A DNA stretch of 64,000 nt from Psammoneis japonica (Eukaryota), in assembly GCA_008632985.1 (NCBI GenBank), contig QPGO01000131.1, positions 124,001 to 188,000 of the forward strand. Reading direction: 5' to 3'. Position numbers and translations under genes: made by a program. Below the pieces are notes generated by a model that did not search any database, had not been told where the DNA came from, and was given only the letters and a program-made list of their open reading frames with translations. Below, one piece after another: positions 14,051 to 52,071 of the stretch; the stretch's first letter is position 1; each line of letters starts with the position of its first letter.

Positions 14051-17000
14051 TGACAAGGATTGAATGCGATCCTGTTTTTCAAACAGATCTGGTGGCAACA
14101 AACTCTCACATCTCAGGCCAAACATGTCTCAGGCAAAAGGCAACCTTTCAATCAACTTGGGACATCAGTGGCACCTGCACAAGGAGCAGATTGTTTGGTT
14201 TGAAAAGCAAAGTGCTCTTGCAAGTGTTCTTTCCTGAAAAGCTTTCCTGGAAAGCATTCTTTGCAACCACTTTTGGCGAGGGATCCTTTGGTCAATGATG
14301 ATGAAACTCAATGACAAAGGTCAACATTGACCAGAGTTGCCCACAGGTCAAATGCATTGTGTCATCTGTTTGGCCCAAAGAATGTTCTGACAAAAAAAGC
14401 TTCGTTGAGTGCCAGCAGTGTGGCACCAGTCACTCTGCTTGTCCAATCTCTTGACGTCATTTTGGTGCTCAGTTCATCCATTGCCAAAGCACCTTTTAAA
14501 AGGATGCTGTGATGACTGTGGACCTTTGTGGTGCCTCTGCTGCTGGCTTGCACTTTTTGTTTCTGGAAGAGTGCCTGCACAGAGCATGTTCTGACACTGA
14601 TGCTCATTTGCATCAGCAACAACATGAAGTGTGTGGCAAACCTTGGGCACGTTGTTTTGGACAAAAAATGTGCCATGTTGGTGGGAAAACACTGAAGAAT
14701 GAGGCAGTGCTGCATGGAGAATTGGGCAACATGAAATGTGCAACATCCAACAAAAATGCTGGAGAAAATTGAGAGTTGGCAGGATCATGACACAACATCA
14801 GAGTGCAAATTTGTTGAAGAAAAAAAAAACTGTGACAAAATCTCACTGCAGAGGATGTGGCAACATTGAGTGATTTCCTTGTCTGGATTTGTTGTTTCTT
14901 GGCTGTGGAAACAAGACCCAAACTGCTGTCATTTCCTGGATGTGTTGCTGTGGTCACTCTTCACATGCTGAGATTGGAAGTCATTTGCAGCGCCACTGCC
15001 AAGAAAAGGAGCACGAGCTTCACAGCTCCACACCAAACCATTGCAAAGCCCTCTGCTTGGCAAACCCATGTTGTGTGCAAAGAGGCTCAAGCTGTCAAGC
15101 CTGCTGGCTTGCCGCACATGCTGGCTGGCTGGCTTCAAACTGGCTTGTCTTGTGGTGCTTGTCTTCAAAAATGGCCTGGCACAAACACCCCTCAGCTTTG
15201 TTTTACATGTCATCAATGTGGAAGCTTCAGTTGTGGCCTTTTGCTCTGGGATGTGAGCAAAATTTGCACTCTCTTCTTGTGCAGAGTTGTTGTTGGTGAC
15301 ACAAGGTCAAAAAGCTTTTGGAGAGTTGTTTCTTGGGTCTGCCTTCCTCAAATGTGCAGAAAGCAGCTCTGATCTGCTTGGTCTTGAAACATGATGAGGA
15401 AAGGCAATCTTCACACCAAGATCCATGCATGGTTGTGCCAAGAAAAGGAATTGTTTGTCTCATTTCTGTGAGTGTGTGCAGACATGTTGAGCACACACGC
15501 AGGGCTCACCGCCCTCCAACAGAGAGCATGAGATTGTGCACTTGGATGGACCTGGAGCACCATTTTTGTCTGATGACAATGGCCTCCTCTTCTGCAATGT
15601 CTTCAAAAAAGCAACACATTTTCTGGTGCAGACTTTGCAGACCTCAAATTCCAAAATGTGCAGAGGGCTGTGGCTTCCAACTTTTTCCTGTCAAGGTGCA
15701 AACCTGCGCAACTTCCAACCACCAGATTCACAGTTGCTGAGAGCAAGCTTTCTGCAAATTTGCTGCAGTTGTGCCACTCACTGTCAGATTCACAGTGCTG
15801 TCTCTCACGGCAACCCCAGTTTTGTTGCCTCTGTTTTTCTTGCCAAACAAACCCCATTTGTGATGTTCTTTGGTTTTGCTTTGCCCAGGCACATGAGTCC
15901 TGGAAGTGGTGCAAGCTTGCAGAACTTGCCAGATGCTGGAGAGAGCAAAAAGCTGCTGAGCAGATCATCATCCTTTTGAGGCACAAATGGCAGGCCAGGA
16001 GATGAGTCAAGTTTGGACTCTGGTGGGCTTTGTGAGCCACCACACCAAGTGCAAAAACACCAGCACCTCTGTTTGCTCCTCAGACAAAGGGCCAGCTGCC
16101 AGATGTGATGGGAGCGCCAATCCTTTGCTCAAATTTGCATTTTTCCCTTGTGCAGCATTGACAGGGCTCTGCCTTTAGCACAAAAGGCCAGCCCATGGTG
16201 TGTTTCTCATTGTTTGTGATGTTTTGCTCACAAAGTTCTCTTGCTTCCTGTGCTGTGCTGTTGCAAAACCTGAGCTGGATGGCCTCCAAAACACCAAAAA
16301 TTGGTCCTCAAGACCCCATCTCTCTTCTCATTCTTGGCTTTGTCCCAATGTTCAATTTGCTGCCAATTGCACGGCATCTCCCTTCTCACCCAACAACACC
16401 TCAAGGTCACACGAGTGCAGAAAAATCCACCCCAGAAAATTCCACTCTCCTCCTCTCATCTGTCATGTGCTGAGCTCCACCTCCTTTGCTTCCATCTGCA
16501 CACCATTTCCAATCTTCCAACTTGTCTTGTTTTGTTTTGTGTTGCCTGCCTTCCCAACTGCCACTCATTTGGTCTGCTTGTGAGCTTGCAGCACACCGAG
16601 CCATGCATCTGCTGATGACATGCACAAGCAGGCAAGCAAGCCCTTCTTGCTTCTTGCACCACCACATCCTGGGCTTGAACTTGTGCTGCTCTGAGATGAT
16701 TGCTGGCATCTTACACATGATCCTCTGAATGTGCAGAAGCTGGAACAGACAGAGCCAACAATGCCAAGCACACAATGTCATTTGAGGCACAAAAGGTGGT
16801 TGTCAGCTGGGGCAAAGAGGCATTTGGTGCAAACAAACAAAATTCTTGCAAACTTCAGGAGAAGCAACAACCAATTTGCAAGTCAATTTTTGCCATTTCT
16901 GGGCATGGCTTGGTTGAGGAGAAATGACACCAAGAGGCAGTGAGAGTGGTGTGGTGGTGTTGTGAACAAAAAAGTGCGTCTTTCTTTGTTTGTTTCTGCG

Positions 17001-18651
17001 CTTGCATGTGTGTTCACTTTTTCCTGGAGCACCAATGCCGGGTGAGCTGTGCAGCACAAACAATCTGGGATGCAGGCAATGGGTGGTTGAATGGAAGACC
17101 TGCTGACCAAATGAACAAATTCTCAACAAGATCAAAATTGTTTGTAAAATGGGGCATTGCAAATTTGATGCATTGCACGGCCATCATCTGAAACATTGGC
17201 CACCACAAAGAAAGCACCAGATGTGTGATTTTAAAGAGGCAATCACAACAAAAATGTTCACAAATCAAATGACAGAACAAAGCACAGTTGACATTTGCAA
17301 AAATTGTGCATTGGCGGAAACTGCAATCACAAATGTGAAAATTGCTTGTGGCCATTGTTCGCCATTTTTCTCATCAAGAATCAAGCATGGAAACACACCA
17401 CACAGACAACATCTTTGCTTTGCAGGGGGGCTCACAGCAAGCTGACACACAAAATCTTGCTGTTTTTTCATGCTGCTGACAATGGCGCTGTTGGCGCTGC
17501 GATGCAGCCTTGCCTTTTTTCCCAGGAGCTGTGCATTCCATGTCTTCACACAGTTGTTCTTGAGGCTTTGTCTCAACTTTTTTGTGAAACAAATGTGGCT
17601 CCTGCCAAGGAGCATTGGAGATTGTCAAAAAGAAGCAAAAAGAAGCTCTCAGGGCTCTTTTTGAGGCTCTTTCAGTGGCGGCAGCCAGAGCACAGCCCCA
17701 AGAACCTGTGCACAAGTCCTGCGAAGCTCTTGTTGCTTTTTTTGCTCTCTGACACATGCAACTCACACCATCTGCATTGGTTTCACAGCAACAAAGCCTG
17801 AGCAAAGTTAAAAGGGGGGCACAAAAGCTCTTTCTCTGCTTGGCCTTTTTCAGCTCAGGCAGCACAAAGCTCAGTTTCTAGCTTCTTGTGCGAGAGAGTC
17901 TTGCAAAATGCTTTTTTGTTGCCTTTTTTGCTCTCTGACATGTGCAACTCACATTGTCCATTTTGGCATTGCAGCAAAAAAAAAAAAACCAACTGCAGAA
18001 TTTGCCAGCTTTTTAGAAAGAAAAGAGAAAAGCTGTCTTGCTGTCTCGTCTCTGCAGCTGCAGGCACGCCACCAGCTGAAGGCCAAAGCCCAGCTTCTTT
18101 GGCCGTGTGTTCCACCACTGCACCATGTGACAAGAGGTGATTGTTCTCTTCACCAAGGAGAACAGAGCACGACAGTCGAGTCCCCACAAGTCCGTTAAAG
18201 CATTTGTGATCGCGTGAAATTGGTCACCAGACTGTGTCATCCAAAAATTTCTACAGCAAGTGGGGATGCCAGCCCGCCCCACCGGCACACGGTAAAACCA
18301 AGCAGAGAGCAAAAAAATTTCGGGCTATGTACTGTATTAGTGGCCTAATGCAAGTACTAACTTATAAATATAAATGCATACTTCTTCATTCTTTTATTCA
18401 TTACTGACATCAGTATATTTGGTTAAAACAATTTTTGATACCCCTGTTAACGTCGAAATGCGTTGAATCATCGTTCCCGCAAAACTAAATTTTCAATTTG
18501 AATTCACACGATCAAAAACAATACCAGGTTCTCCGTAGGATTCTACAGGCATTGGCTGGTTGCGCGGGAAGACGGCGGCTTGAACGGATCACAACAGCAA
18601 CTCACAATTGGAAGTCAATCACTCTCTTCGCTCATTTTCGGCAGAGCAGAC

Positions 18652-21600
18652 ATGGCGACTGCAGACGACATCTCGGTTGACCCATCGCTCTTTATAGAGG
18701 ATGAGTCTGTATCAACGATCGCCGATAGCGTGAGAGCACCGTCCGTGAAAAGTGTACCTCCTATGGCTGCCGAACCACCCCAGGACGAAGAGCCTACGGA
18801 GCCGGAAAAGCCTGAAGAACCGCAAGAGCAAGCGGACGAGAAGGCTGCGGTAGAAGAGGAAGAGATGAAGGAACAAGTTACTGCTGAATCTGCAGCAGAA
18901 GAATGTGAGCAGGAGGAACATGCGGAAGAGAAATCTGCTTCGGTGGATGAAGAAGATCAAAAGGAGCCAGCAGAAGAAAATTCTGGAGCTGCAGTAGAAG
19001 AAGAGCCAAAGCACCAAGCAGAAGAGGCTGATGAAGAAGATCAGACAGAAGCAAAGTCTGCAGTAGTGGAAGAAGTAGAAGACCAGGAAGAGCCGCCAGC
19101 AGAAAAGTCTGTAGTAGTGGAAGAGGTGGAAGAACAGGAAGCGCCACCAGCAGAAAAGTCTGTAGTCGTGGACGAAATAGAAGAACAGGAAGATCCACCC
19201 GCAGACAAGTCTATAGTAGCGGAAGAAGTAGAAGAACAGGAAGAGCCACCAGCAGAAAAGTCTATAGTAGCGGAAGAAGTAGAAGAACAGGAAGAGCCAC
19301 CAGCAGAAAAGTCTATAGTAGCGGAAGAAGAAGGCCAGACAAATGAAAAAGGAAAGGAACAAGCAGAAGAGGAAACCTCGGTTGTGAACGTTGATACAAT
19401 TGACGATGAAGAGGAAGAAATTGACGTGGACGCACTCGATGCTGAATCCCAAGCAACTGCGTCAGTTATTACATCAGTCCAAGACGATGCTTCAGTCCGT
19501 CAAACTCTCACGCAAGCATCGTTTCATTCCATCTCATCCTCTATTCACGAATCTGTAAGGAACGAATCTTTTCACTCGGCTCCAAGCGCTGCATTCTACG
19601 ACTATGCCACCGATGACAAGACCCACAAGTCTTATCTTGACGAACCGGATAGCTCGGTGAATCCCTACGACACTGAAGATGATCCATCTTATTTGGCTGG
19701 GGCGAGGAACCGCGATGTTTCTGCTGAGGAAGAGTCGGCTTATGCCATTGACGGAGAGTTTGATAAGAGCGTGATTTCGGCTGAGGAGGGCGTTCGACCC
19801 AAGTCACCCGCACCCACCTCGTCTGATACTTCACAGGACTCTCCTCTGGGCCTAGGTGGAGCTGCAATTATTCCCTTGGACCCTGTCAAAAAACGCAAGC
19901 GCCGCTTAATTTTTGTCGGAGTCTTTTTGCTGGTGATTGTTGCCGTTGTCATTCCTATTGCAGTCATTTCGTTTGGAGGCAACGGCGGAGACTCATATGA
20001 TCCCAATCGGGCTCCACCTCCGACCGATCGAGAAAAGGAACTCAACGTCCTTTTCGCCGGCGTGTCGGATTCACACCTCCTGGAGAGATTGAACTCGCCG
20101 CAGAACTTGGCGAGGCAGTGGATTGCCAACATTGATCCATTGCAACTGTCGACTATTACTGATTCTCCCGATCGAATCATTCAGCGTTATATCTTGGCAG
20201 TCTTTTGGTATGCTACCAGTGGGGACTCGGCTTGGCTTAACAATGATTGGCTACAGGGCACCGATGAGTGTGCTGGATCCTTTTGGTTTGGTCTCAACTG
20301 TAACGAGATTGGTCAAGTGCGTGCCATAGTTTTTGGTAAGTTATTTGCAACGTTATATGCTTCTTCTGTTTATTGAACATTGCCACTTTCTAACCGCTCC
20401 TTGATGTTTCACTTGGCATTTCAGACAAAAACTCTCTCGAAGGAACTATTCCACGTGAAATTGGATATCTACCCGAACTGGAGAACATCATTCTCAAGAA
20501 CCACCCACGCCTCAAGGGACGCATTCCTGGAACCATTGGAAACCTATCAAAGTTGCGCCAATTGGGTCTCTACAACAACAAGCTCGAAGGTTTGATTCCC
20601 AAGCAGATCTACTCATTAACAGAACTGACCTACATCAATCTGTCGGGTAACATGCTGCAGGGAGGATTGGACATTGCCGTCGAGAATCTGGTCAAGCTGG
20701 AAAAGCTTATATTAGCGAACAACAAGTTGAGCGGTGCCTTTCCAGCTCGCTATCTCGGAAGGACAGCTCTTCGATTTCTTGATCTGAGCAACAACCATTT
20801 CGCAGGCCCCATCCCGGGCGCCATTGGAAGCGTTGACACACTTGAGTACATTAACTTGTCCTCTAACAATCTGGATGGGGAAATCCCCTTTCTGGGACAA
20901 CTTTCTAACCTCAGTAAGTTCCTCTGTAGCGAAATCAATGTAATACCGATGCATTGTGCATCGAGTAGCTCACTTTTACTGTTTTGTACTGATCTCAGAG
21001 TCGCTTATTGTGGGGGGAAACAACTTTTCCGGTTTTCTACCCCCAAGCATGTCGAAACTGAGGAATCTGACGTACGCGTCTTTCCAGGACAACGAATTCA
21101 CGGGAGAGCTTCCATCGGAATATAATACGCTGTCGAATCTGGGTATGTAGCGGATATTATGTAGCGGATATGTCTATTGGTGAAACATGTTATCGTCTTC
21201 GTTTTGTTTTACTCACCTTTCTCTCTCATCTTTTGTCATTTCAGAAACGCTCAATGTTGGCAACAACGATCTGTCCGGGCCAGTTCCAGATTACTCGGGG
21301 ATGACTTCGCTGGTCAATTTCCATGTCCACCAGAACCAGCTCGACGGACAGTTTCCTGAATTTCTCATTTTCCTTAAGAATCTAGGTGCGTTTTGTCGTT
21401 TCTCGGACTGTCTGAAGTATATGTTGTCTGTTTATTTCTCACACCTTTGCCCGTTGTCCTTCCTTATCCTTCAGAGGTCATTTTCCTCAGTTCGAACAAA
21501 TTTGTCGGCCCCATTCCGAACAGTCTTACGTTCTTGTCCGACTCGTTGAAGGGTCTGTATTTGTCGGATAATCAGTTTGACGGTCTTCTCTCATTGAGCC

Positions 21601-23239: not shown

Positions 23240-25061
23240 ATGTTATCGATTCGGTCGTCCCTTACGAGCACCGCTCGTCGTTGCGGTGTCCGTTTTGCCT
23301 CTTCAATGGGTGCTGATCTGAACAAACCTCTCACCGAGACGGATCCGGAGCTCTGCAAGCTTATTGAACAGGAGAAGGCTAGGCAGCGTTCGAGTTTGGT
23401 CTTGATTGCCTCAGAAAACTTCACATCGAGGTCTGTTCTTGACGCTCTTGGTTCCGTACTCTCCAATAAATACAGTGAAGGATACCCCGGTGCTCGTTAC
23501 TACGGCGGGAATGAGAATATTGATAGGGTTGAACTTCTCTGTCAAACAAGAGCGCTGGAGGCGTTTCATTTGGATCCAGAGGAATGGGGTGTGAATGTGC
23601 AGTCCCTTTCGGGATCCCCAGCAAACTTCCAGGTACGAGAAATATCCAGCTTTATTTGATACTTTGCTGAAAAGGTGGACTGGTGTCGGATCTTGCCGCA
23701 TCATGCATCATTGCCTTCTTTCTTCCGCGTCGTTTTCGGCCCATTCTTTCGATCGACCTCACGTAATGCTGACATCAGCATTGGGTTATCAGCGTGAACC
23801 ACGTCATCATCATTTGTCCTTCTCTTAATTGTTGTGACGTGGAAGAATCCTTTGTGTTCTTTTTGAACATATATCATAGTTGGACTAACTTCACTCGTTT
23901 CAATCCTTGCTATTTTTCACGGACCGTATTCTAACTCTTATGCAGGTGTACACGGCTCTTTTAGAGACCCATGATCGCATCCTTTCCCTCGATCTTCCTC
24001 ATGGCGGCCACCTTTCCCATGGCTACCAAACTGCCAACAAGAAGATCTCTATGGTCTCTCGGTACTTCGAGTCTATGCCATACCAGCTCGACCCAAGCAC
24101 TGGCGAAATTGACTACGATCAGATGGAAAAGAGCGCCGAGCTTTTCCGCCCAAAAATGATTGTTGCCGGAGCTTCTGCCTACTCTCGTCTCATTGATTAC
24201 GTTCGTATCCGCAAGATTGCTGATAGCGTCGGGGCTTACGTAATGGCTGACATGGCACACATTAGTGGTCTTATTTCCGCTGAAGTTATCCCGTCTTGCT
24301 TCCCGTACGCTGATGTAGTCACTACGACCACACACAAGAGTCTCCGCGGCCCCCGTGGTGCTATGATTTTCTACCGTAAGGGGCAAAAGGGCACAGACAA
24401 GAAAGGAAACCCGGTAATGTACGACCTTGAGAATAAGATTAATTTTGCGGTGTTCCCAGGACTACAAGGAGGACCGCACAATCACACAATTGGCGCGCTT
24501 TCGACATGCCTAAAGCAGGCAAACACGCCCGAGTTTGTAGAGTACCAAAAGCAGGTTCTCAAGAATTGTGCTCGCTTGGCAGACGAACTTACCAGCAAGG
24601 GCTACTCGCTTGTCAGTGGTGGCACGGACAACCACCTCGTTCTTGTAGACCTCAAGGCATCCCGTGGAATCGACGGTGCTCGTGTTGAACGCATTCTTGA
24701 GCTGGCTTGTATTGCAAGTAACAAGAACACCATTCCTGGAGACACCTCGGCGCTCACCCCTGGTGGCATTCGTATGGGTACACCAGCTCTTACTTCACGA
24801 GGTTTCGATGAAGATGACTTTGCTAAGGTTGCCGAGTTCTTTGACAGGGCGGTTGCAATTGCTGTCAAGCTTAAGAATACCGAGCACGGAAAGAAACTTA
24901 AAGGATTCAAGGAAATGTGCGCCGTTGGCCCTTCCGTCGACCCGGATCTTGTGCAGCTTCGAAAGGATGTATCAGAATTTGCTTGCTCATTCCCTACGGT
25001 AGGATTCACCGAGGACGAGATGTCTTTTGAAGGAGAGTACAACGTAGATTTCGTTGCATAA
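23240..25061 (+). CDS. SHMT: Serine hydroxymethyltransferase, probably mitochondrial; 2 exons
   Basis: [29 protein letters not shown] and the PLP-lysine motif [12 protein letters not shown]; Arg/Ser-rich presequence; intron 23633-23945. Confidence 0.97.
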
Positions 25062-26029
25062 AACTAGACGACTAGATGTGACGTATAAAGATGATAGTCG
25101 CGGAATGCACAAAAAGTCGTGTTTCATACTGAACGGGTTGAGAAAACCTCCGGACTCTGATCTCTGGTACATGTAGGTAGATGCCGGGTTGAATGCTTTA
25201 GAGCACCATGTGTAGCTTGGAAAGAATCGGACTCATGTTCTAGTATGCGCACAGGGTATGAGAGCACAGATGAAGATGTGATGTCATGGATCCTACTAAT
25301 TAAGATACCTGTGGATACCGATATGAATCGAATACAAGAAGGAAAAGAGAGCGTTTGTAAGGAATATAGTCATCACATGCCATGTGCCACAGAAGGTGTG
25401 ACGTGATTCCTTTGCTTGCTGGTTCATCTCATGCGCTCCCTCCTTTTGTTTCCAGCTACAGTACTGTTGGATGTGCACTATAAAGAATAAGAAAGATGCT
25501 ATTGGAAGATGCACGCCTCGTTTCTTCTCCATCGCTTTCTAACCATAAAAGAGTTTAAATGCAGTAAGAAATTGTGTCGAATTCCTGTGTAGCATGACAA
25601 GCAAAACGGATTAGAGTGAGCACGATCGTTTGGTCCTCTAGACTCTGCACGTCTATGGAAACAAGTTCTGCGTACATCCAAGACATCGTCGCCCCACCAC
25701 TTCTCAGACTTTCCACCCTTGTCTACCTTCTCTTTTCTGACGGAGTCTTCACGCCTGTTCGAAGATTGGGTACCTATCGTCCTGTTGGTAGCTGTCCCTG
25801 TTTGAGAAGACGCGCTAGCTGTCAATCTCTGAGCGCCTGCGATACCGCCACGTCTAGTTGTAAGGAAAAGTGCACCCCAAGTCATCGCTTTCGTTGTTTG
25901 CACGAGAAGGTACCTTTGTCAAATACACTCTACTCTAACCCAGCTATTCAACCTCAACAGCGAATCAGAACACTGCTGTCACGATTCTCGATCTTTATGT
26001 GGGATGAAAGTGCGGGCTTTCAGCTTTCA

Positions 26030-27398
26030 CTCGTCGATCCATCAGAACCTGACACAGTACAAATCCATGTACATTTCTACGTACGGCAAAGCTGGGCCCT
26101 TACAGCCAGATTAGATGCCCGGCAGCCTAGGGCCCTAATCCTTTGCGCTGCAGAGTCCACTTCTACAGCAGGACTGCTCCTGCTCTCTACTGCTCTCTAG
26201 AGTAGCTATAGTGCTACAGCAGCTAGTTGCAGTAGAGTAGAGAGCAGAGCACCCTCTCCACAGCAGAGTGGAGCCGAGCTGGAGTGGGTTCCACCAGAAA
26301 GCAGAGAGCGGCCAGAGCAGGTGTGACCAGCTCTGAGCTCCAGCTGGCTCAAAAGGGAAAGAGCAAGTTGGAGTGCAGGAGAAAATGGTGGGGACAGGCT
26401 CCCACAGTTGACAGTGTTTGACCCACCAGATCTCGATCACTTCAACACTTTCGAGTCCGTGTAGCATGTCCATGTCCGAATTTTGGATCTTGTCAGATCA
26501 AACGACGCGACACAAAGTGAACAACAACACGCTTTTTCCAATGCTGCACGTGTCAAAAGGATGAGTTCCGTCAATTGTGGAGTCACTGTGTGCCTGGTGT
26601 GAAACATCAAGGACGAAAACAAGAGTGCATCGCAAGTGAGGAGCCAGTCTGATGTGCGTGTGGTTGGTCTCTTGCAACTTTTTCTTCTCGTCGATCCATC
26701 AGAAATCAGAACCTGACAGCACAAATCCATGCACCGGTGCATTTCTACAGCACGCAACGCAAAGCTGATTCGAAAGAAGGCGTGCAGGTGGGGTCCTCTG
26801 CTGCCACTGCTGCTGCTCTCTCTCTCTCTCTCTCTCTGCTGGGTGTGTCTGCATTGTGACAGAGGGATGCCAGCCCAATCCTTTGCGCACAGAGTCCACT
26901 TCTACACCACTCTTGCGCTCTCTAGCTGCAGCACTGCAGCAGCCAGTGACAACAGAGTGGAGAGCAGAGCAGAGCAGAGCAGAGCACCCTTTCTACAGCA
27001 GAGTTGAGCCGAGCTAGAGCAGGTTCTACTGGAAAGCACTGGTAGAGAGTAGCTAGGTACGACTAGCTCTTGCTAGCTCAAAAGGGAAAGAGCAAGTTAG
27101 AGTACAGTAGAAAATGGTTGGGGACAGGCTCCTGCAGTTATTATAGTGCTTGACCCGCCAGATCTCGATCGCTTCAACACTTTCGAGTCCGTGTCAGCAT
27201 GTCCATGTCCGAATTTTGGATCTTGTTAGATCAAACGACAACGATATAAAGTGAACAACAACACGCTTTTTTTCCAATGCTACGCGCATCAAAAGGACGA
27301 GTTCTATCAATTGTGGAATCGCTGGGTACCTGGTGTGAAACATCATCGACAAAAACAAGAGTGTAAGGAGCTAATCTAATGTGCGTAAAGTTAGTCTC
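26030..27398. repeat. Non-coding tandem duplication (copy 1 ~26030-26672, copy 2 ~26687-27398)
   Basis: Shared blocks CTCGTCGATCCATCAGAA, AATCCTTTGCGC, GCTCAAAAGGGAAAGAGCAAGTT, AGCATGTCCATGTCCGAATTTTGGATCTTGT, CCTGGTGTGAAACATCA. Confidence 0.93.
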
Positions 27399-28413
27399 AC
27401 GGATCTTCTTTTTTAATTGTTTGCCCAACCGTGTTGCCCGTCGCCGAGTATCGTCAAGTTCTATATTATCGCTCTTTGAACAAATCGAATTCATGTATCT
27501 AAATGCAAGTTGTATGCAGCTGTTATGTCTTTTTCGTCGGATATTTGCTCTTGCCGCTTTTCTCATCTCGTACCGGCCATTTTATGTACATGTGTAATTG
27601 GTAGCATCTTTCGTCTAAATACAGTAGGAAACAATGTCAAAATCCTGCAAGAACGAAGAAAGTTGCGGTGTTGAGTTTGAAGCTCAAGAGGGTATCATAA
27701 TGACCGCAAACCAGCAATCAAAAGCACGTACCTCAACAATATTCTCGTTCCACCACTTGGGGCTATTGTCTTTGTCTCTTCCTGCATTAGAATTCTTACG
27801 TTCCGGCAACTTTGGAGATTGCGCAACAATCTCTTTCTTCTCGCGGCGTTCCGTCACGAATCGTTGCACTGTTTGTGCATGCTTCTGGGTTCCTTGTCGA
27901 AGTTCGAAAGCAAATTCACCCCACGTCATTCTGCTGTTGGCTCTTGGTCGGTATGGAAATTCAAGTGTGGTAACAATAGCTTCAAAGCTGCTCTTTGACA
28001 GGATGAAAATGATACTCTGGACTGCACCTTGTAGTGTTTTTCTTTGTGTGACGAACTCGTGACGAAAGCCTCCTTCAACATTCGATCCAACCCGGTTTGC
28101 TGGTGTTGTTCTTTTTCTTAATTTTTCTGGTTTTGATTTTTGATTCGTCAAAACTTGACACCGACCGTGACACGATACCAGAAAGGTGACGACAACATTT
28201 GAAGTATTTAATACTGAATATTTTATTCACAGACGGTAAATCGTACAGTAAAATCGATACATTACGAATCAAAACATTCACAATACTTCAAGCACATAGA
28301 CAAGCAATCCATCGCCCGCCACCAAAATCTCGCGGGCATCTCGCCAAGCTCCAAAGCAGTCATCGGCATTTGAGATGAGAAGAGAGCGGAGCTAACTCTC
28401 GTTTGCCGTCACC

Positions 28414-30164
28414 ATGTCGTTCCCTCCTCCACTGTCGGCTTCACCAGTTGCCTGTATCTTCCCCTTGATTAGCGATGCAAAGTCGGGCGGCAGAGACCCG
28501 TTGTCAAAGTTCAATTTGTCGCCTCAAGAAAAGTCCGCGTTACGAAGCGCCGAAGCCAATCCGCTAGAATACACACTTGCCGACGCTACCGAAGCACAGG
28601 CGTATATTTCGCTCTTGTTGAGAGTACTAGACGAGTGTGCTGGGCCTCGCGGTCCGTCTTCCAAGCTATCTCGGTTTACGGAGGTTTTGAGCGACAAAGA
28701 GGCGTCAGAAGTGTTGGGGATTGATCCGAAGGGGGTATTGACTCACTTTGCCGTGAGCAAGCTGTACGAAGTACTACATTGCCTCAAGGAAAAATCTGAA
28801 AAGTCCAGCGTCACGATACCTTCAATCTTTTACGACGATAATGGTGATCTCAGGATGGATTTGTGTAAGCCGTTTTATGCTATTTTGCATCTAGGAAAAG
28901 CGGGGGACAAGTTTGCTCAGCGAGGAACATCGGTATGTTTGTCGTTTATCCTCATGGCAGCGTGCGGTGCTTCCAAAGTCAAAACGAAATCCGCAAAGAT
29001 GCTCAATTCTAACACTGTTAAGGAACCGCTGCGAACATTGGTGTCGTGGATATCCTCAGAGCTACATTCGTTTGTCAGCTCATCTCTCTGGACGGCAACG
29101 CCGTCACTAGTCACAATTATGGACTCGTCGGACGCCCGAACCATGTTTGCCGACGACGGTGGCATTGCCTTTCTCTCTCGCCATTTACGCATGGGACACA
29201 AACCGGCGTCTCCTCGAACGGGAGTAGAAGCAAGCGGTGCTTCGGCCCAGCAAGTGTATGAACTTGTGTATTGCATGTGGACCATGACGTATGAGTGCAA
29301 CAGCTCGCCACTCGTGTCGGCTCACTTTGCTCGTGATGGTGCCGTGGCGGCGCTCGTGGATCTCGTGGGAAGTGCGCCTCGTGAAAAGGTGGTGCGTGTC
29401 GCCTTGTCGGCGTTGCGAAATCTAGCCACAGTCAAGCCCATGGAGGAGATATCCGATGCTTCCATCTCGAAACGACCCATTAGCGGAAGGTTCTTTCTGA
29501 ATGAAATGATTGGCTGTGGTCTCATTAAATCTGTAGACCTTTTGAAGGAACGTCAGTGGACTGACCCTGATATCCTTGAAGGTAAGAGGCAACGTGATTG
29601 CCATCACGCGCCCCTCTGTTGATACTGTTGGTTTCTTACAGTTACGTTTTGGTTTCCTATCCTAGACCTGGATGTGCTTTATCAGCTTCTTCACGAGAAC
29701 TACAAAGAAATGACTCGTTGGGATGTCTACAAGGCCGAAGTCGAATCGGGACACCTCCAATGGGGAATTACACACACGGAAAAGTTCTTCAAAGCCAATG
29801 CCAAGAATTTTGAAGGACCCGACGGCGACTTTGAGCTCGTAAAGAGCTTGATCAAGCTTGTCCTTTGTGATGACGACGACGTTATTTCAATTGCATGCTA
29901 TGATATCGGCGAATTTGTACGCCACTATCCGAATGGTCGGTCTATTATCAAGCGTCTGGGTGCCAAGGAGGTTGTAATGAAACTTATTGAGCATGAAAAT
30001 GACGAAGTAAGCCGACATGCATTGCAGTGTGTCTCCAAAATGATGGTTCAGAATTGGACGGTGAGTATACATATGTCGTTTAGACTTTTACTCGACTTTT
30101 ACTATACTGGTAAGTGTGGACAAGCTAATGCCGTTTCTTTGTCTCGTTCCAGGCTATCAACTGA
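28414..30164 (+). CDS. ATP6V1H: V-type H+-ATPase subunit H; 3 exons
   Basis: Q..YEL..CMW, REKVVRV.L..LRNL, W.DPDI.ED, Y.AEV.SG.L.W...H.EKFF..N, ACYDIGEFVRHYP.GR; introns 29582-29665 and 30061-30152. Confidence 0.93.
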
Positions 30165-30739: not shown

Positions 30740-32244
30740 ATGTCAAAGATTGCCTCATCCTCGACACTCCGACGACGATGCCCTGGTACACTGAAAAGAA
30801 GAATCCGTCACCATTCAGCACCGTCAAAGTGCGAAGATTTTTTGACCAATGGCGGAGTTGTTGAAGGTGTTTTTGTTTTCTGTCGTCACGGAGATAGGAC
30901 ACCATCGAGATCGCTTTCGGCTGAGCATATGGTTCAAGTTGAAGCAGAGTTCTGGAGAACAAAATTGCCGACACCAAATTCTATTGCAGCTTCGAAGCCT
31001 TGTCGGAATGCTTTCCACCTGAAATCCATCCCTCTAATGCAGGAACATTCCTCGACTCGAAGCGAGAGCCATTCGGGTTCCTTACTCTTCGCGGTATGGA
31101 TCAGTTGCGAACAATGGGACGGCGATTCTTTCTAAGATACGACCAGTACGGGCACCAAGCACAAGGACAGTGGACTCCTCATCGTACCGAGGAGTTTTTG
31201 TTGAATTTTTCAAAGTACTGGAACGTTCAGGCCATCTCGACAAACTACCTCCGAACAATCATGTCTGCGCAATGCTTTCTCGATGGCCTTGCTGGTACCA
31301 ATTGTTATATTCCGTATGGCCAGCCCGCCCCATCGGATCCCCATGTAGATAGAAAAGGCATTCGAGTGGCAGTCAATGTTCGAGATAGGTCGCAGGATAC
31401 CCTGAATGCGTTTGACAAGAATCCCGAAAAAATGCTGAGCTTGGTGTCCGACGTGGTAAGCACGCAGCAATTCCAAGAACGGGATGCAACTGCTGCACCC
31501 TTGGCTGCTCGCTTGGCTAACTTTTTACCAGGACTAACGAAAAAGGGACAAAAGGTGTTTGGAGGTCCGTCGGGTATCAACTGGATCCATGCTACCGATC
31601 ATTTTGTCTGCCGATCGGCTCACAATGCCAAGTTTTCTCAATTCTCGGTCTTTGAGAATGACGACCGAGTTGAGCATACCCTTGTAGCTATGGCCCATCA
31701 AACTGTGGCTCATTTGGCATGGCGTTTCCGACAATGGTATCAGAGTCCACCTCTATTGGCAGCCATTGCGGCACCGCCGCTGCGAGAAATTGCAACGCAA
31801 CTACAGTCGGCTTGCAGTCTAGGAGTGCATGAGCCGCGACCTTTTGTCATTTACAGTTGTCACGATGTGACTATCCTTGCCCTACTCTATGGAATTGGAG
31901 CGGAGTTCTTGGTAGATGAAGAAAAGGGCGACTGGAGGTTCTGGCCTTCGTATGCAAGCTCCCTTGTGTTTGAGCTAGTTCGAGTTGAGGAGGGTCTCAG
32001 CGCAAGCTCTCACGTAGTTCGGGTGTTGCTCAATGGTCAGCCAGTGCGAGCCGTCAGGTTTGAGAGGCAAAAAGTAGCTAATGCTGATGACTATGTAGGA
32101 GAGGGACCGCTGCGAATGCTCCGAGTGTCGGATCTGTTAGCCATCATCTCAAATCTCGAAGAACGTGGACAACTGGCAAAGCAGCAGGATACGTCGGGCA
32201 GTGACGACACCGCAGAGAGGGACATGACGGGATGGACTGGTTAA
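30740..32244 (+). CDS. Histidine phosphatase superfamily (branch 2, acid-phosphatase-like); one apparent frameshift near 30990
   Basis: RHGDRTP catalytic motif, G.LT..G..Q, STNYLRTIMSA, CHDVT, YASSLVFEL. Confidence 0.85.
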
Positions 32245-32439
32245 GAAAGCCATTTTCTTAGTTGCTGAACATGACTCAAGGACAGTGCTGATGAGTCAAG
32301 TACAGTTGAAGGGAGAACCGTCATCTGACGACTTTGTGCAAAGACGAGCGTACCACACAGCGATAAGTGATTTTAAGGTAGACTCATTTTGATGGCCTTC
32401 TACAAGAGGCGCTATTTCTTCAGTTTCCTTTTGTGTAAC

Positions 32440-34600
32440 ACCGTCTTCTCTGTGTTGATCCAGTTTGAGTGAAGACTGATTCAAGAGCACACCAGCACTG
32501 ACATGGACTGTGCTCACCCCCCATGGTTGCACAGGTCCTGGGTTGGTCTTTTTGATGGGCCACATGCCTGGTGGTCATGTCCTCATGATGGCCCAGAAGC
32601 TGTGCCTGTTCTCAATTAGATGCCCAGCCTGGGTGACAGCATCTGTGTGATGCCAAAAGTCAGTGTCTGAGGTCATGCTCTGCCATGGCATCACAATGAG
32701 GCGATGTTGTCAATGGTGCATTGATGTGTCAGATCCAGCACTTTCATTTTCACATGAGCAGGGCTGTGTGCAGCACAGTGGCAGCTCCTGAGTTTGTGAG
32801 GCACAGGTGGGAGCTCTCTCACAGATGAAGAGAGTGCTGTGCAACATGCCATCAAATGAGCAACAAGATGACACAGCATGCAGATGAAGCTGTTGGCAGC
32901 TCCTTGGGCATGAAACTTGTGTTCAACATGGGCACAAATGCAGCGCAAAAGGGAATGATGACAAAAATCATGTTGACATGGCAGACAGTCAGTTGGTTGG
33001 AAACACAGCAACCCTGTTCTTTGTCACCACCAAGAGTGCAAAACCACCATCTGTGTTGACGTTTTCACATGTGTGCTGCAAATGTGATTGCTGAGAATGT
33101 CAACTCTGCAGACAGTCACTTGGTTGGAAACACAGCAACCCTGTTCTTTGTCACCACCAAGAGCGCAAAACCACAATCTGAGTTGACATTTTCACATGTG
33201 TGCTGCCAATGTGATTGCTGAGAATGTCAACTCTGTGGGACACTCAAGATCACCACAAGAGCAAATTTGGTTTTGCCTGCCTCAGAGAAGGGAAGCAGGT
33301 TTGGACTGGTGGCAGACAGGAGTGCACTGCAAAGCAACAACCCAAGGATGGGGGGTCACTGACATTGTGCAAAAATGGTGCAACACCACACAAACTGACA
33401 AGGTTGTGGGAGAGCAGATCCATGCTGGCACAAAACTGTTGAAAAAAGAAGGGTCAAAGGCAAGGATTGTGCGGAACGAAGAGGAAGGTTGCACAAAAGA
33501 ACAGGTCAGAGAAGAGGGCAGTTGTTGGTTTTCATGATGATCAGCTGCCACCCAGTTTTCAATGTGCACAGATGGATTTTTGGGCACTTCTAGAAATGCA
33601 AAATTTGCAGTTGACAGGCATGTGTCAGACAATTGTGCCTTGGCCACCAGGACCACTCACATTTGTTGAGTGTTGTTTTGAGAAAAACCGCGTTTTGGTT
33701 TTGCTTTTGGAAGCTTTGAGTGGTGCGGAGATGCCACAGCTGCTGAGCTGGCAAATGCTTGCTTCAGTGTGCCATGCTGTGCTCAAAAGGGACAGTCATC
33801 AAGGGAATGCCTTGATGTCACAAAGTCGCCATGTGTGGTTTGAAAAATGCAGGTTGCTCTTGGAAGTTGCACCTTGCTTCCATTGTTTGACACTTGGAGC
33901 TTCAGTCAGCTGCTGCTGACCCCAACAATGCATCAACTCTCAGCACAAACTTCAAAGAATGTGTTGTTGTTTGCACCATGGTGCTGGCCCCGCATTGGCC
34001 TCCTCCTCTTTTTGGTGCGCTGTGTGCATTGCTGTTGCTCTCTCTGAAGCCATCAGCAAGAATCCTTTACAGCCAGCATGTGTGCTGTTCAGCCGTGCTC
34101 TCAGGCACTCCAGAGGGCTTTGCAACAACTCCTCCAGCACTCCTTTTCAAATGCTGGTGGGCTGACACATGTCTGGATGAGCACCTCTGTTGGGGTGGTC
34201 CCAGATTGGTTGGACATTGCATGCTCTTGAGAGCCCCAATCAACATTCTCAATTTTTTCTGTGCTGGGAAGAAGTCTCCGTTCATCCACCCATCTTTGAA
34301 GCAACTTCTTCCCATCAACGGTGCAACACACATGATCAGCAGCCAGGAGGTTTGAGCTGGTCTTCCTCTCTCCTGTCTAATGGGGCCACATTTCACCCTG
34401 TGCCCATTGCTTGTCTCTGCACTTCTGACAATCTCTGCCAGCCTCTCCATTCTTGCTCCAGTGTCCACATCAGCTTCAATTGTGGGGGGCAGCCAAGCTC
34501 CTCACACCAGGACACAGGATTGTCAACACAGCCTTCTTTGACATCAATCATGGGCACCCACCACAGTGGAGACTGTGCACAGCCATTGACACCCCACTAA
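32440..34600. other. TpA-depleted degenerate repeat or pseudogene island of unknown family
   Basis: Near absence of TA and scarcity of CG; Tyr-free spurious ORFs; flanked by normal genes. Confidence 0.7.
32981..33235. repeat. 127-bp tandem duplication
   Basis: Units start at 32981 and 33108 (GCAGACAGTCA.TTGGTTGGAAACACAGCAACCC...GAGAATGTCAACTCTG) with about 6 mismatches. Confidence 0.95.
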
Positions 34601-34983
34601 CTTGCTCAGTGTCCGGTTGTGAAATTAAAATCTTTTGCATGTTTGTAGGATTTTCTATTTTTATTTCATTCAAAAATCGATGATTTGTTTCTCAGTTTCT
34701 CGGAGATGGTCCCAACATTCAAAGTAGGTAGGGTCTAACAGTGAGAGCAATGCATTTAGCTACAGTGAATCCTCTAACCAGTTTGACATTTTTCGGCCTT
34801 TGCGGCAATTGATAAGGGCCTTACTTGGACGCAAGTCACTCATGGCTCTTCAGCTAAGGCCCTCCGCACTCTAGAGATACCCATTGAGTATTTTCTTCGA
34901 AAGACACAATGTGGACGCCTTAGTAGAATGAAGTCACCAGGTACATGATCAAGGCGATCACGAGGATATCCCTGAATCATGTA

Positions 34984-35589
34984 CTACTCGGCTACTCTTC
35001 CCTGCTCGGTAATGATTCCCATATCTCTAAGTCTTGCTGTTGACAAGTAAGTAGATGAACCATCTTTATCAGTCGCATCTGGATCCACCATCATCGAATC
35101 CACTCGGCAAATGGCAACGTCGTGAGATCCACAGTCCACAAGGTCGCCTTGCAGCGTTAGTTTTAGGTAACTCGCACATTCTGGTAGCAACAAGAATGGT
35201 TTTTCCTCTTTGATCGTCCAAGGGAATCCCAGCTTTGCGCACTCTTGTTGCTTGTTTACATCTCGTCCTGAACATCCTCCCAACACTTTTACCAGAGGAG
35301 CATGCGGTTCCCTCAAAAGTTGCAGCACACCGGAGCCATTGCGAGAAAAGTTCTCGTGTGACACGGTTCCCTTGAAGAGACCAATAGACCATATACGATC
35401 TGGACGAATGCTTACGGGTGTTGCATAAGTTACAATATTCATGTTTGTTGTCTTCCCATCATGAGTAGCCAAGGAGTATGTGGGCACATCCAGAAGCGGT
35501 GGTGTGTCTGTGGGTTGAAGAAGTGCATCGACCAGAGCATCCGACAGAACCAGTATTAGTATAAGAGTAAGGTATACATACAGCGCCAT
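34984..35589 (-). CDS. Flavin reductase-like (FMN-binding split barrel) protein with N-terminal signal peptide
   Basis: NMNIVTYATPVSIRP, LG..SGRDVNK, L.C...GSHDV.ICRV pattern; hydrophobic N-terminus. Confidence 0.75.
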   Translation of the reverse strand: MALYVYLTLILILVLSDALVDALLQPTDTPPLLDVPTYSLATHDGKTTNMNIVTYATPVSIRPDRIWSIGLFKGTVSHENFSRNGSGVLQLLREPHAPLVKVLGGCSGRDVNKQQECAKLGFPWTIKEEKPFLLLPECASYLKLTLQGDLVDCGSHDVAICRVDSMMVDPDATDKDGSSTYLSTARLRDMGIITEQGRVAE

Positions 35590-35888: not shown

Positions 35889-37550
35889 ATGGTACGTATG
35901 CCGTTTACAAGTGTTGTCAGAACAGACTGTACAGTGATTAGGTTCATCGAAGTTGTCTGTAATTGACTGGTTCACTTCTGCATGAGTTTGGTTGAGCGAT
36001 CGTGACGGACAATGTGCAAAACTATGTTCAACGTGTCGGCATGTTCTCATGCTTGCTGAATTCGGTATGTTTGATCGCAGGGTTCTACTTTATCGTTAGC
36101 CTTTACGTACTGCGCTTGCTCTGCAGTGGGCAGTCTATGTACATCTTGTTTTGGTTCGACAGCGCCAGGAACGACCGGTCGGAAGCGCTCCGTTCTGCTG
36201 CTAAGTGTGGCTATTGCCTTGGCACTGTGGTTTCAGTACTGGGTGGGACCGTCTGTTGTCAAGCACGAGGGTTGGATTTGGAAGACGTATCGTGCTATAC
36301 CTGGGTCGGGCAAAGCAGTCTATCACGCGTGGTACGATCCTTGTCAAAAGTATGCGGACGACGAGGACCTTTTAGTACAGTGTGCAGGAAACGCTGGAGT
36401 TTACCGACCCACTTTTTTGGCTAGTCTCTTTTTCGCCGCCTCGGCTGTGGGAACGAGGATTGTTCCAGGATTGAACCGAGAAGCGTGGCCTGCAAAGTAT
36501 GCCGTTTTTGGTATCTTGGTTCTGGTATCCATGTTCATCCCCAACGATCCGCTCTTTAGCAGCTTTTACTTGTGGGTGGCGCGGCTTGGAGCTACTTTCT
36601 TTGTGGTGTTGCAGCAGATCATTTTGATTGACGTCGCATACAACTGGAACGAGGATTGGGTCGAGAAGTCAAATGCGTGCGACCGAGTTTCCTTTGGAAG
36701 TGGACAGGGATGGTTGAGGGCTATTATTGCAACCTGTGTCGCATTCTATAGCGCCTCGCTGGTTGGAATTTCGCTCTTGTATTCCTGGTTTGACGACTGC
36801 CCAGAGAACAAAGCTGTCATTACCTTGACTCTGTTGGGTGTGATTGCTCTTACCGCGATCCAATTGTCGGGTACCGAGGGAAGTTTGCTCACATCGTCCG
36901 TCATTAGCATGTACGTGACGTATCTTGCGTATTCGATCTGTTCCAAGAACCCAAATCCCGAATGCAATCCGCATCTTGGACACAATGATGTTTGGGGAAT
37001 TATCGTTGGACTTACCTTGACAGCCATTAGTCTTGCGTGGACGGGATGGAGCTGGACTGCCGAACAACGTCTAAACACCGAAGGGTAAGAGAAGCGCGAC
37101 TTTTGATGCATTTGCTGTTTTGCGTTCTTTCAAGATGCTCACCATCTTCCTGCATTCCGCGACATTTTCTCCTGCAGTGTTCAGTCCACGAGGACAATGA
37201 CTCCCCAGCAGCTTCAGAGACCCACCAATCCCGAGGGCCTCGGGGTTCCATTCTTGGATCCGGAAGATCAGCCTCCCGCAGGAGTTGTTGCCGACACGGA
37301 CACGACGCCTTATACGGGAACAGAGCTTTGGAAGCTTAACGTTGTCATGGCTCTCATTTCGTGCTGGGTGGCCATGACTTTAACGGGATGGGGCACACTG
37401 GAGTCTGTGGAAGACACACCGACTGCGGCAAATCCTACTGTAGGACGGTTCAATATGGCCATGCTTGGCATCAGTCAGTGGATTGTGATTCTGTTGTACG
37501 TCTGGACTCTGTTGGCGCCGCGTCTCTTTCCGGATCGGGACTTTTCTTGA
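35889..37550 (+). CDS. SERINC: Serine incorporator (Serinc/TDE/TMS) membrane protein; 3 coding exons
   Basis: C.GNAGVYR, LQQIILIDVAYNWNE.W, GSLLTSSVIS.Y..YL, NP..ECNP, LY.WTLLAP.LFPDRDFS; introns 35892-36080 and 37085-37177. Confidence 0.92.
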
Positions 37551-42929: not shown

Positions 42930-43140
42930 CACTACTCTAGAGTAGGCCCTCTCTACTCTCTAGAGTAGAGCTCTCTAAGCTACTTTCTACTCTAGCTAGT
43001 AGAGCTCTACTCTAGAGCTACCGGTAGTATCTACTCTCTACTCTAGAGCTAGAGTAGAGAGTGGAGTACCGGTGGAGAGTACTACATACAGCTAGCTAGA
43101 GAGCGGTACCGGGCGGTAGATAGAGAATACCGGTATGAGA
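42930..43140. repeat. TA-rich palindromic low-complexity tract
   Basis: Concatenated TACTCTA, TAGAGTA, TAGCTA, TACCGGTA, CTCTAGAG. Confidence 0.85.
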
Positions 43141-51948: not shown

Positions 51949-52071
51949 TGCTTTCTAATCTTACAGACGATGCGTAATCATCGGCATGGCAGATCTATAT
52001 AGTAGAACGCCCGACTCCGCATAGGTGACAAGAGCAACGCACTTGAACGTTGAGGATACCGGTAGCATAGC

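What the first reader, a model, noticed from the sequence alone, without database searches (positions are those of the whole stretch)
26060..27060. Indels between the duplicate copies are TA-duplicating micro-insertions resembling Tc1/mariner footprints
Seen, allowing for later TA conversion: ATGTACATTT (26068) vs ATG-CACCGGTG-CATTT (26732), i.e. TA->TACCGGTA; TTCTACGTA vs TTC-TACAGCA-CG (26746), TA->TACAGTA; CTC-TAGAGTA-GCT (26198) vs CTCTAGCT (26923), TA->TAGAGTA; AAG-CACTGGTA-GAGAG (27037) vs AAGCAGAGAG (26302); GC-CAGAGCA-GG (26313) vs GCTAGG (27052). Established: Tc1/mariner elements insert at TA and leave TA + terminal bases + TA on excision (Sleeping Beauty leaves TACAGTA/TACTGTA). Inference: several families with ends CAG, CCG and CTC repeatedly visited this locus. 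TpA is their obligatory target, so the TA-erasing process may be linked to this pressure.
Basis: partly seen in the sequence, partly recalled or inferred. Interest (0 to 1): 0.8.

Follow-up and report, generated by a model that had tools for sequence, protein, structure and literature searches.

The report
TA-anchored micro-indels between tandem duplicates
Two side-by-side copies of a 735-base non-coding stretch in a diatom-like genome differ by small insertions or deletions that sit at TA steps, some of which look like scars left by a jumping gene, but no such element was found here, so the case stays open and fairly ordinary.

Summary
All ten quoted strings are in the window, within two bases of the stated places. 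They lie in a true tandem duplication, copy A 26025-26671 and copy B 26681-27398. It sits in untranscribed intergenic DNA and has normal read depth.

Gaps between the copies are tied to TA. 8 of 13 gaps of 3 or more bases can be written TA/CA/TG-core-TA/CA/TG against a single TA/CA/TG, where 2.0 are expected (P about 2e-4). Six control dinucleotide sets gave 1-4 of 13.

One contiguous tract, 26246-26990, has lost nearly all its TAs, and the converted flanks of four of the five indels lie inside it.

The transposon reading is only partly supported:
- For: indel 1 is a clean TA to TA-CCGG-TA event in unique sequence. TACCGGTA occurs 3 times against 0.14-0.26 expected. This scan noted the same word in other diatom genomes.
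- Against: no TA-flanked inverted-repeat element and no transposase were found in the window. Polarity is unknown. TA-N3/N4-TA spacing shows no general excess. Indels 3 and 5 are one unit of a local pentanucleotide repeat, and indel 2 is ambiguous.

A link between TA erasure and transposon pressure has no support here.

The parts
26025..26671 (.). Tandem duplicate, copy A
   Evidence: alignment. Contig depth is 70 against about 57 in the flanks, so this is not two alleles laid side by side.
26681..27398 (.). Tandem duplicate, copy B
   Evidence: Contig depth is 64.
26246..26990 (.). Contiguous TA-erased tract (right part of A plus left part of B), about one repeat period long
   Evidence: It holds 4 TAs in 745 bases, observed/expected 0.10. 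The flanks have 1.37 (26025-26245) and 0.84 (26991-27398). TA is kept in A at 11 of 11 informative sites up to 26239, and in B at 21 of 21 from B 26994.
26732..26739 (.). Indel 1: CACCGGTG in copy B against TA (26070-26071) in copy A. It lies in unique sequence and is the best footprint candidate (TA-CCGG-TA after undoing TA erasure).
   Evidence: It lies in the erased tract. YACCGGTR occurs 7 times against 1.3-2.1 expected.
26746..26752 (.). Indel 2: TACAGCA in B against TA (26078-26079) in A. The alignment is ambiguous.
   Evidence: splits it into +1 and +4. An ACGCA-ACGCA tandem lies at 26752-26761. It fails the objective test.
26198..26204 (.). Indel 3: TAGAGTA in A against TA (26923-26924) in B. 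Both TAs are intact.
   Evidence: TAGAG is also the unit of the nearby pentanucleotide array.
27037..27044 (.). Indel 4: CACTGGTA in B against CA (26302-26303) in A
   Evidence: One flank is CA in a part of B that otherwise keeps its TAs. ACTGG also occurs 10 bases upstream.
26313..26319 (.). Indel 5: CAGAGCA in A against TA (27054-27055) in B
   Evidence: It lies in the erased tract.
26628..26638 (.).
   Evidence: The core is not palindromic.
26698..26711 (.). Plain 7-base tandem duplication, ATCAGAA twice, in B. It is not TA-anchored.
26180..26199 (.). 10-base tandem duplication, CTGCTCTCTA twice, in A
26961..26986 (.). (AGAGC)n pentanucleotide array, three units longer in B than in A. It lies at the edge of the erased tract.
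42954..43135 (.). TA island made of short cores between TAs (CTC, GAG, GAGC, GC, GAGCTC, CTCTC) with three YACCGGTR words at 43019, 43067 and 43128
   Evidence: Tandem Repeats Finder does not call it. A 25-base inverted repeat lies at 42958-43017.
52057..52064 (.). Isolated TACCGGTA in intergenic DNA

Best explanation
An old tandem duplication of about 735 bases, in silent intergenic DNA, has diverged in three ways.

(1) One contiguous tract of about 745 bases across the A/B junction has had its TpA steps turned into CpA or TpG. This is why several indel flanks now read CA or TG. This step is shown.

(2) Ordinary repeat slippage has made 7-, 10- and 15-base tandem changes and microsatellite length changes. 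This step is shown.

(3) A set of 5-9-base gaps is anchored on TA, of the form TA against TA-core-TA. The association is shown; the cause is inferred.

My best reading of (3) is a mixture. The CCGG event (indel 1), and perhaps the CAG and CTGG events (indels 2 and 4), are excision scars of a TA-targeting cut-and-paste element of the IS630/Tc1/mariner superfamily, most likely a small non-autonomous one. Such an element would insert at TA and duplicate it. On leaving, it would leave the duplicated TA plus a few of its end bases.

The two TAGAG events (indels 3 and 5) may be the same kind of scar. They are explained equally well by the gain or loss of one unit of the local TAGAG/CAGAG repeat.
For: - TA-anchoring is beyond chance: 8 of 13 gaps against 1.99 expected, P = 1.7e-4, with controls at 1-4 of 13. 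Generic microhomology would give TA/CA/TG only 16-20% of the time.
- Indel 1 lies in unique, non-repetitive sequence. It is no tandem copy of its neighbours, and its core is the palindrome CCGG, as expected if two bases of each inverted end stay behind.
- The same 8-mer is over-represented. TACCGGTA occurs 3 times against 0.14-0.26 expected, and YACCGGTR 7 times against 1.3-2.1. At most 1 of 200 simulations reached these counts.
- Three of the seven YACCGGTR words lie within about 117 bases, in an island that is not a tandem repeat.
- TA flanks CCGG at 15 of 150 sides. For GGCC, GCGC and CGCG together the figure is 20 of 588 (counts).
- Contig ends from other loci of the same sample show the same vocabulary, TA-CCGG-TA beside TA-CTC-TA-GAG (table 7).
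- Published Stowaway and Osmar5 scars are TA plus 1-4 end bases plus TA (passages of PMC1925063; PMC3660474).
- Earlier notes of this scan describe TA-CCGG-TA micro-insertions, and a small element whose ends match them, in other diatom genomes. I did not check those notes.
- The converted flanks of indels 1, 2 and 5 lie in the erased tract, and indel 3 outside it has intact TAs.
Against: - No element was found with TA flanks and matching inverted ends. The only TA/TA-flanked pair outside the island, at 34982-35478, matches 13 of 16 and lies in a transcribed reading frame.
- 0 of 109 reading frames of 90 or more residues in the repeat-rich parts hit a DDE transposase. The only hits of the retrotransposon kind are copia-type domains.
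- Polarity is unknown. Every case could equally be a deletion between two TAs in the other copy.
- The 9-base TA-anchored gap has a non-palindromic core, TCGCAAG, which does not look like two inverted ends.
- Five to eight scars in 1.3 kb since the duplication would be a very high visiting rate. The 42 kb of normal DNA shows no general excess of TA-N3-TA or TA-N4-TA, 100 and 94 against 67-102 at other spacings.
- After conditioning on the flanks, the word excesses are 2.5-4-fold. Unrelated cores such as CG, GC and CT show about 2-fold.
- TACTGGTA and TACCAGTA are not enriched once the CCGG words are removed.
- Indels 3 and 5 share the unit of an array that demonstrably slips.
Confidence: 0.45

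Rival explanations
1. All the gaps are ordinary replication slippage or microhomology-mediated deletions in cryptically simple DNA. On this reading the TA link arises because the local repeat units (TAGAG, TAGC and the like) happen to contain TA.
For: - Plain tandem duplications of 7, 10 and 15 bases lie in the same alignment.
- TAGAG is the unit of the array at 26961-26986.
- Indels 3 and 5 both read YAGAG-YAG against YAG, a 3-base direct repeat.
- Indel 2 lies beside an ACGCA tandem.
- Indel 4 repeats ACGGG-free ACTGG found 10 bases upstream.
- Control dinucleotide sets also pass slightly more often than expected, up to 4 of 13 against 2.2.
- There is no global excess of TA-N3/N4-TA spacing.
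Against: - Indel 1 and the 9-base gap lie in unique sequence with no repeat to slip on.
- TA is the rarest dinucleotide here, at 0.41 of expectation over the window. Yet TA or its converted forms flank 8 of 13 gaps, and generic 2-base repeats would be TA/CA/TG only 16-20% of the time.
- This reading does not explain why TACCGGTA is over-represented and clustered.
Confidence: 0.33
2. The process that erases TpA also nicks or breaks DNA at TA now and then, and faulty repair adds or removes a few bases there. On this reading the indels are a by-product of the hypermutation, not of transposons.
For: Every gap has one of its two alleles inside the erased tract, and the gaps are TA-specific.
Against: - At every alignment column one copy lies in the tract, so the first point carries no weight.
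- TACCGGTA words at 43019, 43128 and 52057 lie in DNA that is not erased.
- In the passages I read of the one paper on TpA hypermutation, the hypermutable regions show only AT-to-GC single-base changes, and no link with indels is mentioned (bioRxiv 10.64898/2026.01.13.699255).
- A simple break would not duplicate the TA.
Confidence: 0.08
3. Several families with ends CAG, CCG and CTC visited this locus again and again, and the TA-erasing process evolved under, or is coupled to, the pressure from these TA-targeting transposons.
For: The same evidence as for the footprint reading. In addition, erasing TA does remove potential targets.
Against: - Erased DNA in this window is the retrotransposon-rich block 1-18000 and two smaller blocks.
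- The densest putative scar island, 42954-43135, lies in the 2-kb bin with the highest TA content, observed/expected 0.83.
- No element of any of the three proposed families was seen.
Confidence: 0.06
4. The gaps are errors of assembly or sequencing, or two alleles laid side by side.
For: Contigs of the public run break inside the duplication, and a few single-base differences from the window are listed there.
Against: - 87% of the sampled 31-base words of 25500-28400 are held by run X1.
- Depth over both copies is 64-70 against about 57 in the flanks, not half.
- The copies differ at about 15% of aligned sites, with a structured pattern.
- Run X1 may be the sample the window was assembled from, so it is not independent.
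Confidence: 0.03

Closest known systems
Excision footprints of IS630/Tc1/mariner elements and their Stowaway-type MITEs. Examples are the putative Stowaway scars in Triticeae beta-amylase introns and Osmar5 scars in yeast (passages of PMC1925063 and PMC3660474). The Sleeping Beauty TAC(A/T)GTA scar is recalled, not checked here.
   Same: - A TA at the site is duplicated.
- One to four bases lie between the two TAs.
- The net gain is 5-6 bases.
- Several different scars can lie at one locus.
- The CCGG core is palindromic, as expected from two inverted ends.
   Different: - No element or transposase is in hand.
- Polarity has not been established.
- One TA-anchored gap has a 7-base non-palindromic core.
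- Several flanks are seen only in converted form (CA or TG).
TA-CCGG-TA and TA-CC(A/T)GG-TA micro-insertions noted by this scan in other diatom genomes (e1-7547648, e1-7564075, e1-7548063)
   Same: The same 8-base word occurs, it clusters into TA-rich islands, and the host is also diatom-like.
   Different: - Those are unchecked AI notes on other genomes.
- Here TACCWGGTA was not found, 0 against 0.08-0.21 expected.
- No source element was seen here.
Microsatellite slippage and microhomology-mediated small deletions
   Same: Tandem 7-, 10- and 15-base changes occur in the same alignment. Indels 3 and 5 are bounded by YAG direct repeats.
   Different: A generic process would not prefer the rarest dinucleotide.
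TpA-to-TpG/CpA hypermutation of integrated viral DNA in Bigelowiella natans (bioRxiv 10.64898/2026.01.13.699255; abstract and passages read)
   Same: The base changes between the copies are mostly TA against CA or TG, on both strands, in a sharply bounded tract.
   Different: That work reports base changes only. The target here is one period of a tandem duplicate, not viral DNA. It explains the converted flanks, not the indels.

Membership tests
Tc1/mariner-type excision footprint | The site is a TA, and the scar carries a duplicated TA on both sides of the extra bases | tested here: met
   Indel 3 shows this as it stands (TAGAGTA against TA). Indels 1, 2 and 5 and the 9-base gap show a true TA in the unerased copy, and CA or TG in the copy that lies in the erased tract. 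Indel 4 has CA...TA against CA.
Tc1/mariner-type excision footprint | The extra bases are the terminal bases of an element present in the genome | tested here: inconclusive
   No TA-flanked inverted-repeat element was found in the 64-kb window. The whole genome is not held.
Tc1/mariner-type excision footprint | An IS630/Tc1/mariner (DDE/D) transposase is encoded in the genome | tested here: inconclusive
   0 of 109 reading frames of 90 or more residues in the repeat-rich parts of the window, and 0 of 19 long frames elsewhere, match one. The rest of the genome could not be searched.
Tc1/mariner-type excision footprint | The empty TA is ancestral, so the long allele is derived | not testable with these tools
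   No third copy exists in the window. Two metagenome scans found no orthologue.
Tc1/mariner-type excision footprint | The same scar words recur elsewhere more often than expected | tested here: met
   TACCGGTA occurs 3 times against 0.14-0.26 expected. TACAGTA with TACTGTA occurs 9 times against 2.2-3.0. TAGAGTA with TACTCTA occurs 14 times against 2.3-5.5. The excess is modest after conditioning on flanks (P 0.01-0.04), partly comes from two or three islands, and is measured in the window only.
Replication-slippage or microsatellite indel | The inserted bases are a tandem copy of adjacent sequence or one unit of a local array | tested here: inconclusive
   - Met for the 7-, 10- and 15-base gaps.
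- Arguable for indels 3 and 5 (TAGAG unit, 3-base direct repeat).
- Not met for indel 1 or the 9-base gap.
TpA-to-CpA/TpG hypermutated tract | Strong local loss of TA with gain of CA and TG, on both strands, with sharp edges | tested here: met
   In 26246-26990, TA is at 0.10 and CA+TG at 1.58 of expectation, against 1.37 and 0.84 for TA in the flanks. There are 15 TA/CA and 17 TA/TG differences.

The most novel reading that the evidence does not exclude
Diatom intergenic DNA may be shaped by a very active TA-targeting miniature transposon. Each visit would add a TA plus a fixed core (CCGG, GAG/CTC, CAG/CTG). Scars would then seed new targets and pile up into TA-rich islands in an otherwise TA-poor genome.

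Separately, the TpA-erasing mutator may recognise newly duplicated DNA. Here it rewrote a tract whose two edges fall at the same point of the repeat unit, to within about 20 bases, so that exactly one period of the tandem duplicate is erased.
Probability: 0.12. Interest if true: 0.7.

Novelty: new member of a known kind. Interest (0 to 1): 0.35.

Why it matters
If the CCGG-type events are real scars, this tandem duplicate gives a dated before-and-after record of a cut-and-paste transposon working in a diatom. It would also explain an odd class of TA-rich, palindromic, low-complexity islands between genes.

The locus is useful whatever the cause of the indels. It shows that TpA erasure can strike a single tract of about 745 bases inside a duplicate and leave the homologous DNA beside it untouched. 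That constrains how the mutator picks its targets.

The scan has already noted the TA-CCGG-TA phenomenon in other diatom genomes, so this finding is a further instance, not a first.

Tried and rejected
- **Whole-genome search.** No genome is held for this window.
- **Rfam.** No match in the window.
- **Other copies of the duplicated unit.** There are none in the window, only (CT)n similarity to 42325-42355. The contig "joint" 42347 to 26177 is therefore most likely low-complexity cross-matching.
- **Inverted-repeat scans.** Searches gave nothing that looks like a small transposon. The pair at 34982-35478 lies in a transcribed reading frame, and the rest is at chance level or inside the palindromic island.
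- **Pfam scan of the repeat-rich parts.** Only copia-type domains were found.
- **Outgroup search.** A 22-base conserved word of the unit and the V-ATPase H protein were sought in metagenome contigs, and both found nothing.
- **Reads.** Only contigs of one sample could be laid. The 12 indel rows shown are ten single-base insertions, one 3-base loss and one 4-base loss. 13 further rows were not shown, so nothing can be said about 5-6-base polymorphism. Several "differences" inside the copies match the other copy and are probably cross-mapping.
- **Literature.**
  - A search for TACCGGTA returned 509 papers. The 20 listed are unrelated by title and abstract start.
  - Searches for diatom mariner-like elements gave listings only, with none on diatom elements or scars.
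- **Strand bias.** I considered that the erased tract marks single-stranded DNA exposed at the duplication junction. The CA:TG ratio is 9:12 in the part of the tract in copy A and 6:5 in the part in copy B, so there is no strand bias and I dropped the idea.

Full report
**Context**

The window is eukaryotic. It has long reading frames for SHMT, V-ATPase subunit H, a CER1-like hydroxylase, an ABC protein and a copia-type retrotransposon. No Rfam family matches, and no whole genome is held for it. Earlier notes of this scan call the genome diatom-like and describe a TpA-to-CpA/TpG hypermutation of its repeats.

In this window TA stands at 0.01-0.07 of expectation over 1-18000. It stands at 0.14 over 32001-34000 and 0.11 over 62001-64000. 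Elsewhere it is 0.5-0.8.

**The duplicate**

The finding lies in the spacer between SHMT (23907-25061) and V-ATPase H (28414-29622). This spacer holds a tandem duplication with a period of about 735 bases, copy A at 26025-26671 and copy B at 26681-27398.

Contigs of a public run hold 87% of the sampled words of 25500-28400. They cover both copies at depth 64-70, against about 57 in the flanks. The duplication is therefore real and not two alleles laid side by side. The run may be the sample the window was assembled from, so it is not independent.

A second run of the same sample skips three GT..AG stretches of 84-93 bases, so it behaves like RNA. It has depth 0-1 over 26002-27335, so the duplicate is not transcribed.

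**The observation**

All ten quoted strings are present. The first begins at 26067, not 26068.

In a transition-tolerant global alignment, four of the five events are single gaps of 5 or 6 bases. The second splits into +1 and +4 beside a perfect ACGCA-ACGCA tandem, so it is ambiguous.

- a 7-base ATCAGAA tandem duplication;
- a 10-base CTGCTCTCTA tandem duplication;
- a 15-base difference of three AGAGC units;
- a 7-base gap at A 26335-26342;
- a 9-base gap at A 26627;
- an unalignable block (A 26094-26135 against B 26767-26875) with (GCT)n, (CT)n and (TG)n runs;
- about a dozen 1-2-base gaps.

**Is it more than chance?**

I tested all 13 gaps of 3 or more bases outside the unalignable block, allowing only placements that add no mismatch. 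8 of 13 can be written as TA/CA/TG-core-TA/CA/TG against one TA/CA/TG. Random pseudo-gaps of the same lengths in the same copies give 1.99 (P = 1.7e-4). Six control dinucleotide triplets pass 1-4 times.

Two of the eight are plain tandem repeats whose unit holds CA. One is the unlisted 9-base gap, CA-TCGCAAG-TG against TA. Generic 2-base direct repeats at these distances are TA/CA/TG only 16-20% of the time. The anchoring on TA is therefore real.

**The "later TA conversion"**

Between the copies there are 71 transitions and 14 transversions. 32 of the transitions are TA against CA or TG. Six further sites read CA in one copy and TG in the other. Only 3 TAs are shared.

The pattern switches once. 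Copy A keeps the TA at 11 of 11 informative sites up to 26239. Copy B keeps it at 21 of 21 sites from B 26994 onward. On the chromosome this is one contiguous erased tract, 26246-26990, with 4 TAs in 745 bases (0.10 of expectation). Its flanks stand at 1.37 and 0.84.

Indels 1, 2 and 5 and the 9-base gap have their converted flanks inside this tract and a true TA in the unerased copy. Indel 3 lies outside the tract and has both TAs intact. Indel 4 has one CA in a part that otherwise keeps its TAs.

**What made the indels**

For a TA-targeting cut-and-paste element:
- Indel 1 is a 6-base event at a TA in unique sequence (ATG-TA-CAT against ATG-CACCGGTG-CAT). It is not a tandem copy of anything nearby.
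- TACCGGTA occurs 3 times in the window against 0.14-0.26 expected. With converted flanks the count is 7 against 1.3-2.1.
- Three of these seven words lie within about 117 bases, in an island at 42954-43135. There the stretches between successive TAs are almost all CTC, GAG, GAGC, GC, GAGCTC, CTCTC or CCGG. Tandem Repeats Finder does not call this island.
- Loose contig ends from other loci show the same vocabulary.
- Published Stowaway and Osmar5 scars are TA plus 1-4 end bases plus TA (passages).
- This scan noted TA-CCGG-TA insertions, and a small element with matching ends, in other diatom genomes. These are unchecked notes, so they are a lead and not support.

Against it:
- I found no TA-flanked inverted-repeat element.
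- I found no DDE transposase. 0 of 109 frames match one, and the retrotransposon hits are copia-type domains.
- There is no third copy or orthologue to polarise the events.
- In the 42 kb of TA-normal DNA, TA-N3-TA and TA-N4-TA pairs number 100 and 94, against 67-102 at other spacings.
- After conditioning on the flanks, the excesses are CCGG 3 against 0.75, GAG 8 against 3.2 and CAG 6 against 2.3, with P of 0.01-0.02. Unrelated cores such as CG and GC are also about 2-fold up, because TAs cluster.
- Indels 3 and 5 are both YAGAG-YAG against YAG. That is one unit of the pentanucleotide array, which differs by three units between the copies.
- The 9-base core is not palindromic.

I conclude that the set is probably mixed. 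Indel 1 is the best footprint candidate, and indels 3 and 5 are undecided between scar and slippage.

**The link to TA erasure**

Nothing here supports it. Erasure sits on the retrotransposon-rich blocks. The densest putative scar island lies in the 2-kb bin with the window's highest TA content, 0.83 of expectation.

In the passages I read of the one paper on TpA hypermutation, the hypermutable regions show only AT-to-GC base changes.

**Verdict**

At best this is a further member of a known kind, transposon excision scars. It was already noted by this scan on other diatom DNA.

The most interesting by-product is that the erased tract spans just one repeat period.

Noticed in passing
window 26246-26990: The TA-erased tract starts in copy A and ends in copy B at the same point of the repeat unit, to within about 20 bases. 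Both edges lie at the (AGAGC)n array. Exactly one period of the tandem duplicate is therefore erased, while the homologous outer halves keep their TAs. The chance of such a coincidence is roughly 6%. There is no strand bias: CA:TG is 9:12 in the part of the tract in copy A and 6:5 in the part in copy B.
   Followed up: partly
window 26175, 26212, 26285, 26295, 26403, 26551 (copy A coordinates); also 26309-26310 against 27050-27051: At six aligned sites one copy reads CA and the other TG. This implies independent erasure of the same ancestral TA in both copies, including in the halves that otherwise keep their TAs. At one site TA in copy B faces CG in copy A, so both bases changed.
   Followed up: no
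window 42954-43135: A TA-rich, partly palindromic island lies in the 2-kb bin with the window's highest TA content. It has 29 TAs, and the cores between them come from a very small vocabulary. Most cores fit the start of GAGAG followed by the end of CTCTC. The reverse order, CTCGAG, never occurs between TAs there. Contig depth rises to 123-250 against about 57, so similar DNA exists elsewhere in the genome.
   Followed up: partly
window 27098-27110 and 26369-26381: The chain TA-GAG-TA-CAG-TA is present in copy B without any gap against copy A, where it reads TGGAGTGCAGGAG. These two "scar words" therefore predate the duplication.
   Followed up: no
window 1-18000, 32001-34000, 62001-64000: These are blocks with TA at 0.01-0.14 and CG at 0.06-0.63 of expectation. 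The first holds a copia-type retrotransposon with direct repeats at 866-1059 and 7567-7760 that are 93% alike. This is the same TpA/CpG-erased class that earlier notes describe for this genome.
   Followed up: partly
window 25583-25675, 29579-29664, 30059-30152, 37083-37177: Contigs of run X2 skip 84-93 bases at GT..AG (or CT..AC) borders. They are most likely short spliceosomal introns, and one of them marks a minus-strand gene just upstream of copy A.
   Followed up: no
window 19034-19333: A 51/102-base in-frame tandem repeat, about six units at 86-87% identity, lies inside a 598-residue reading frame that has no Pfam match.
   Followed up: no
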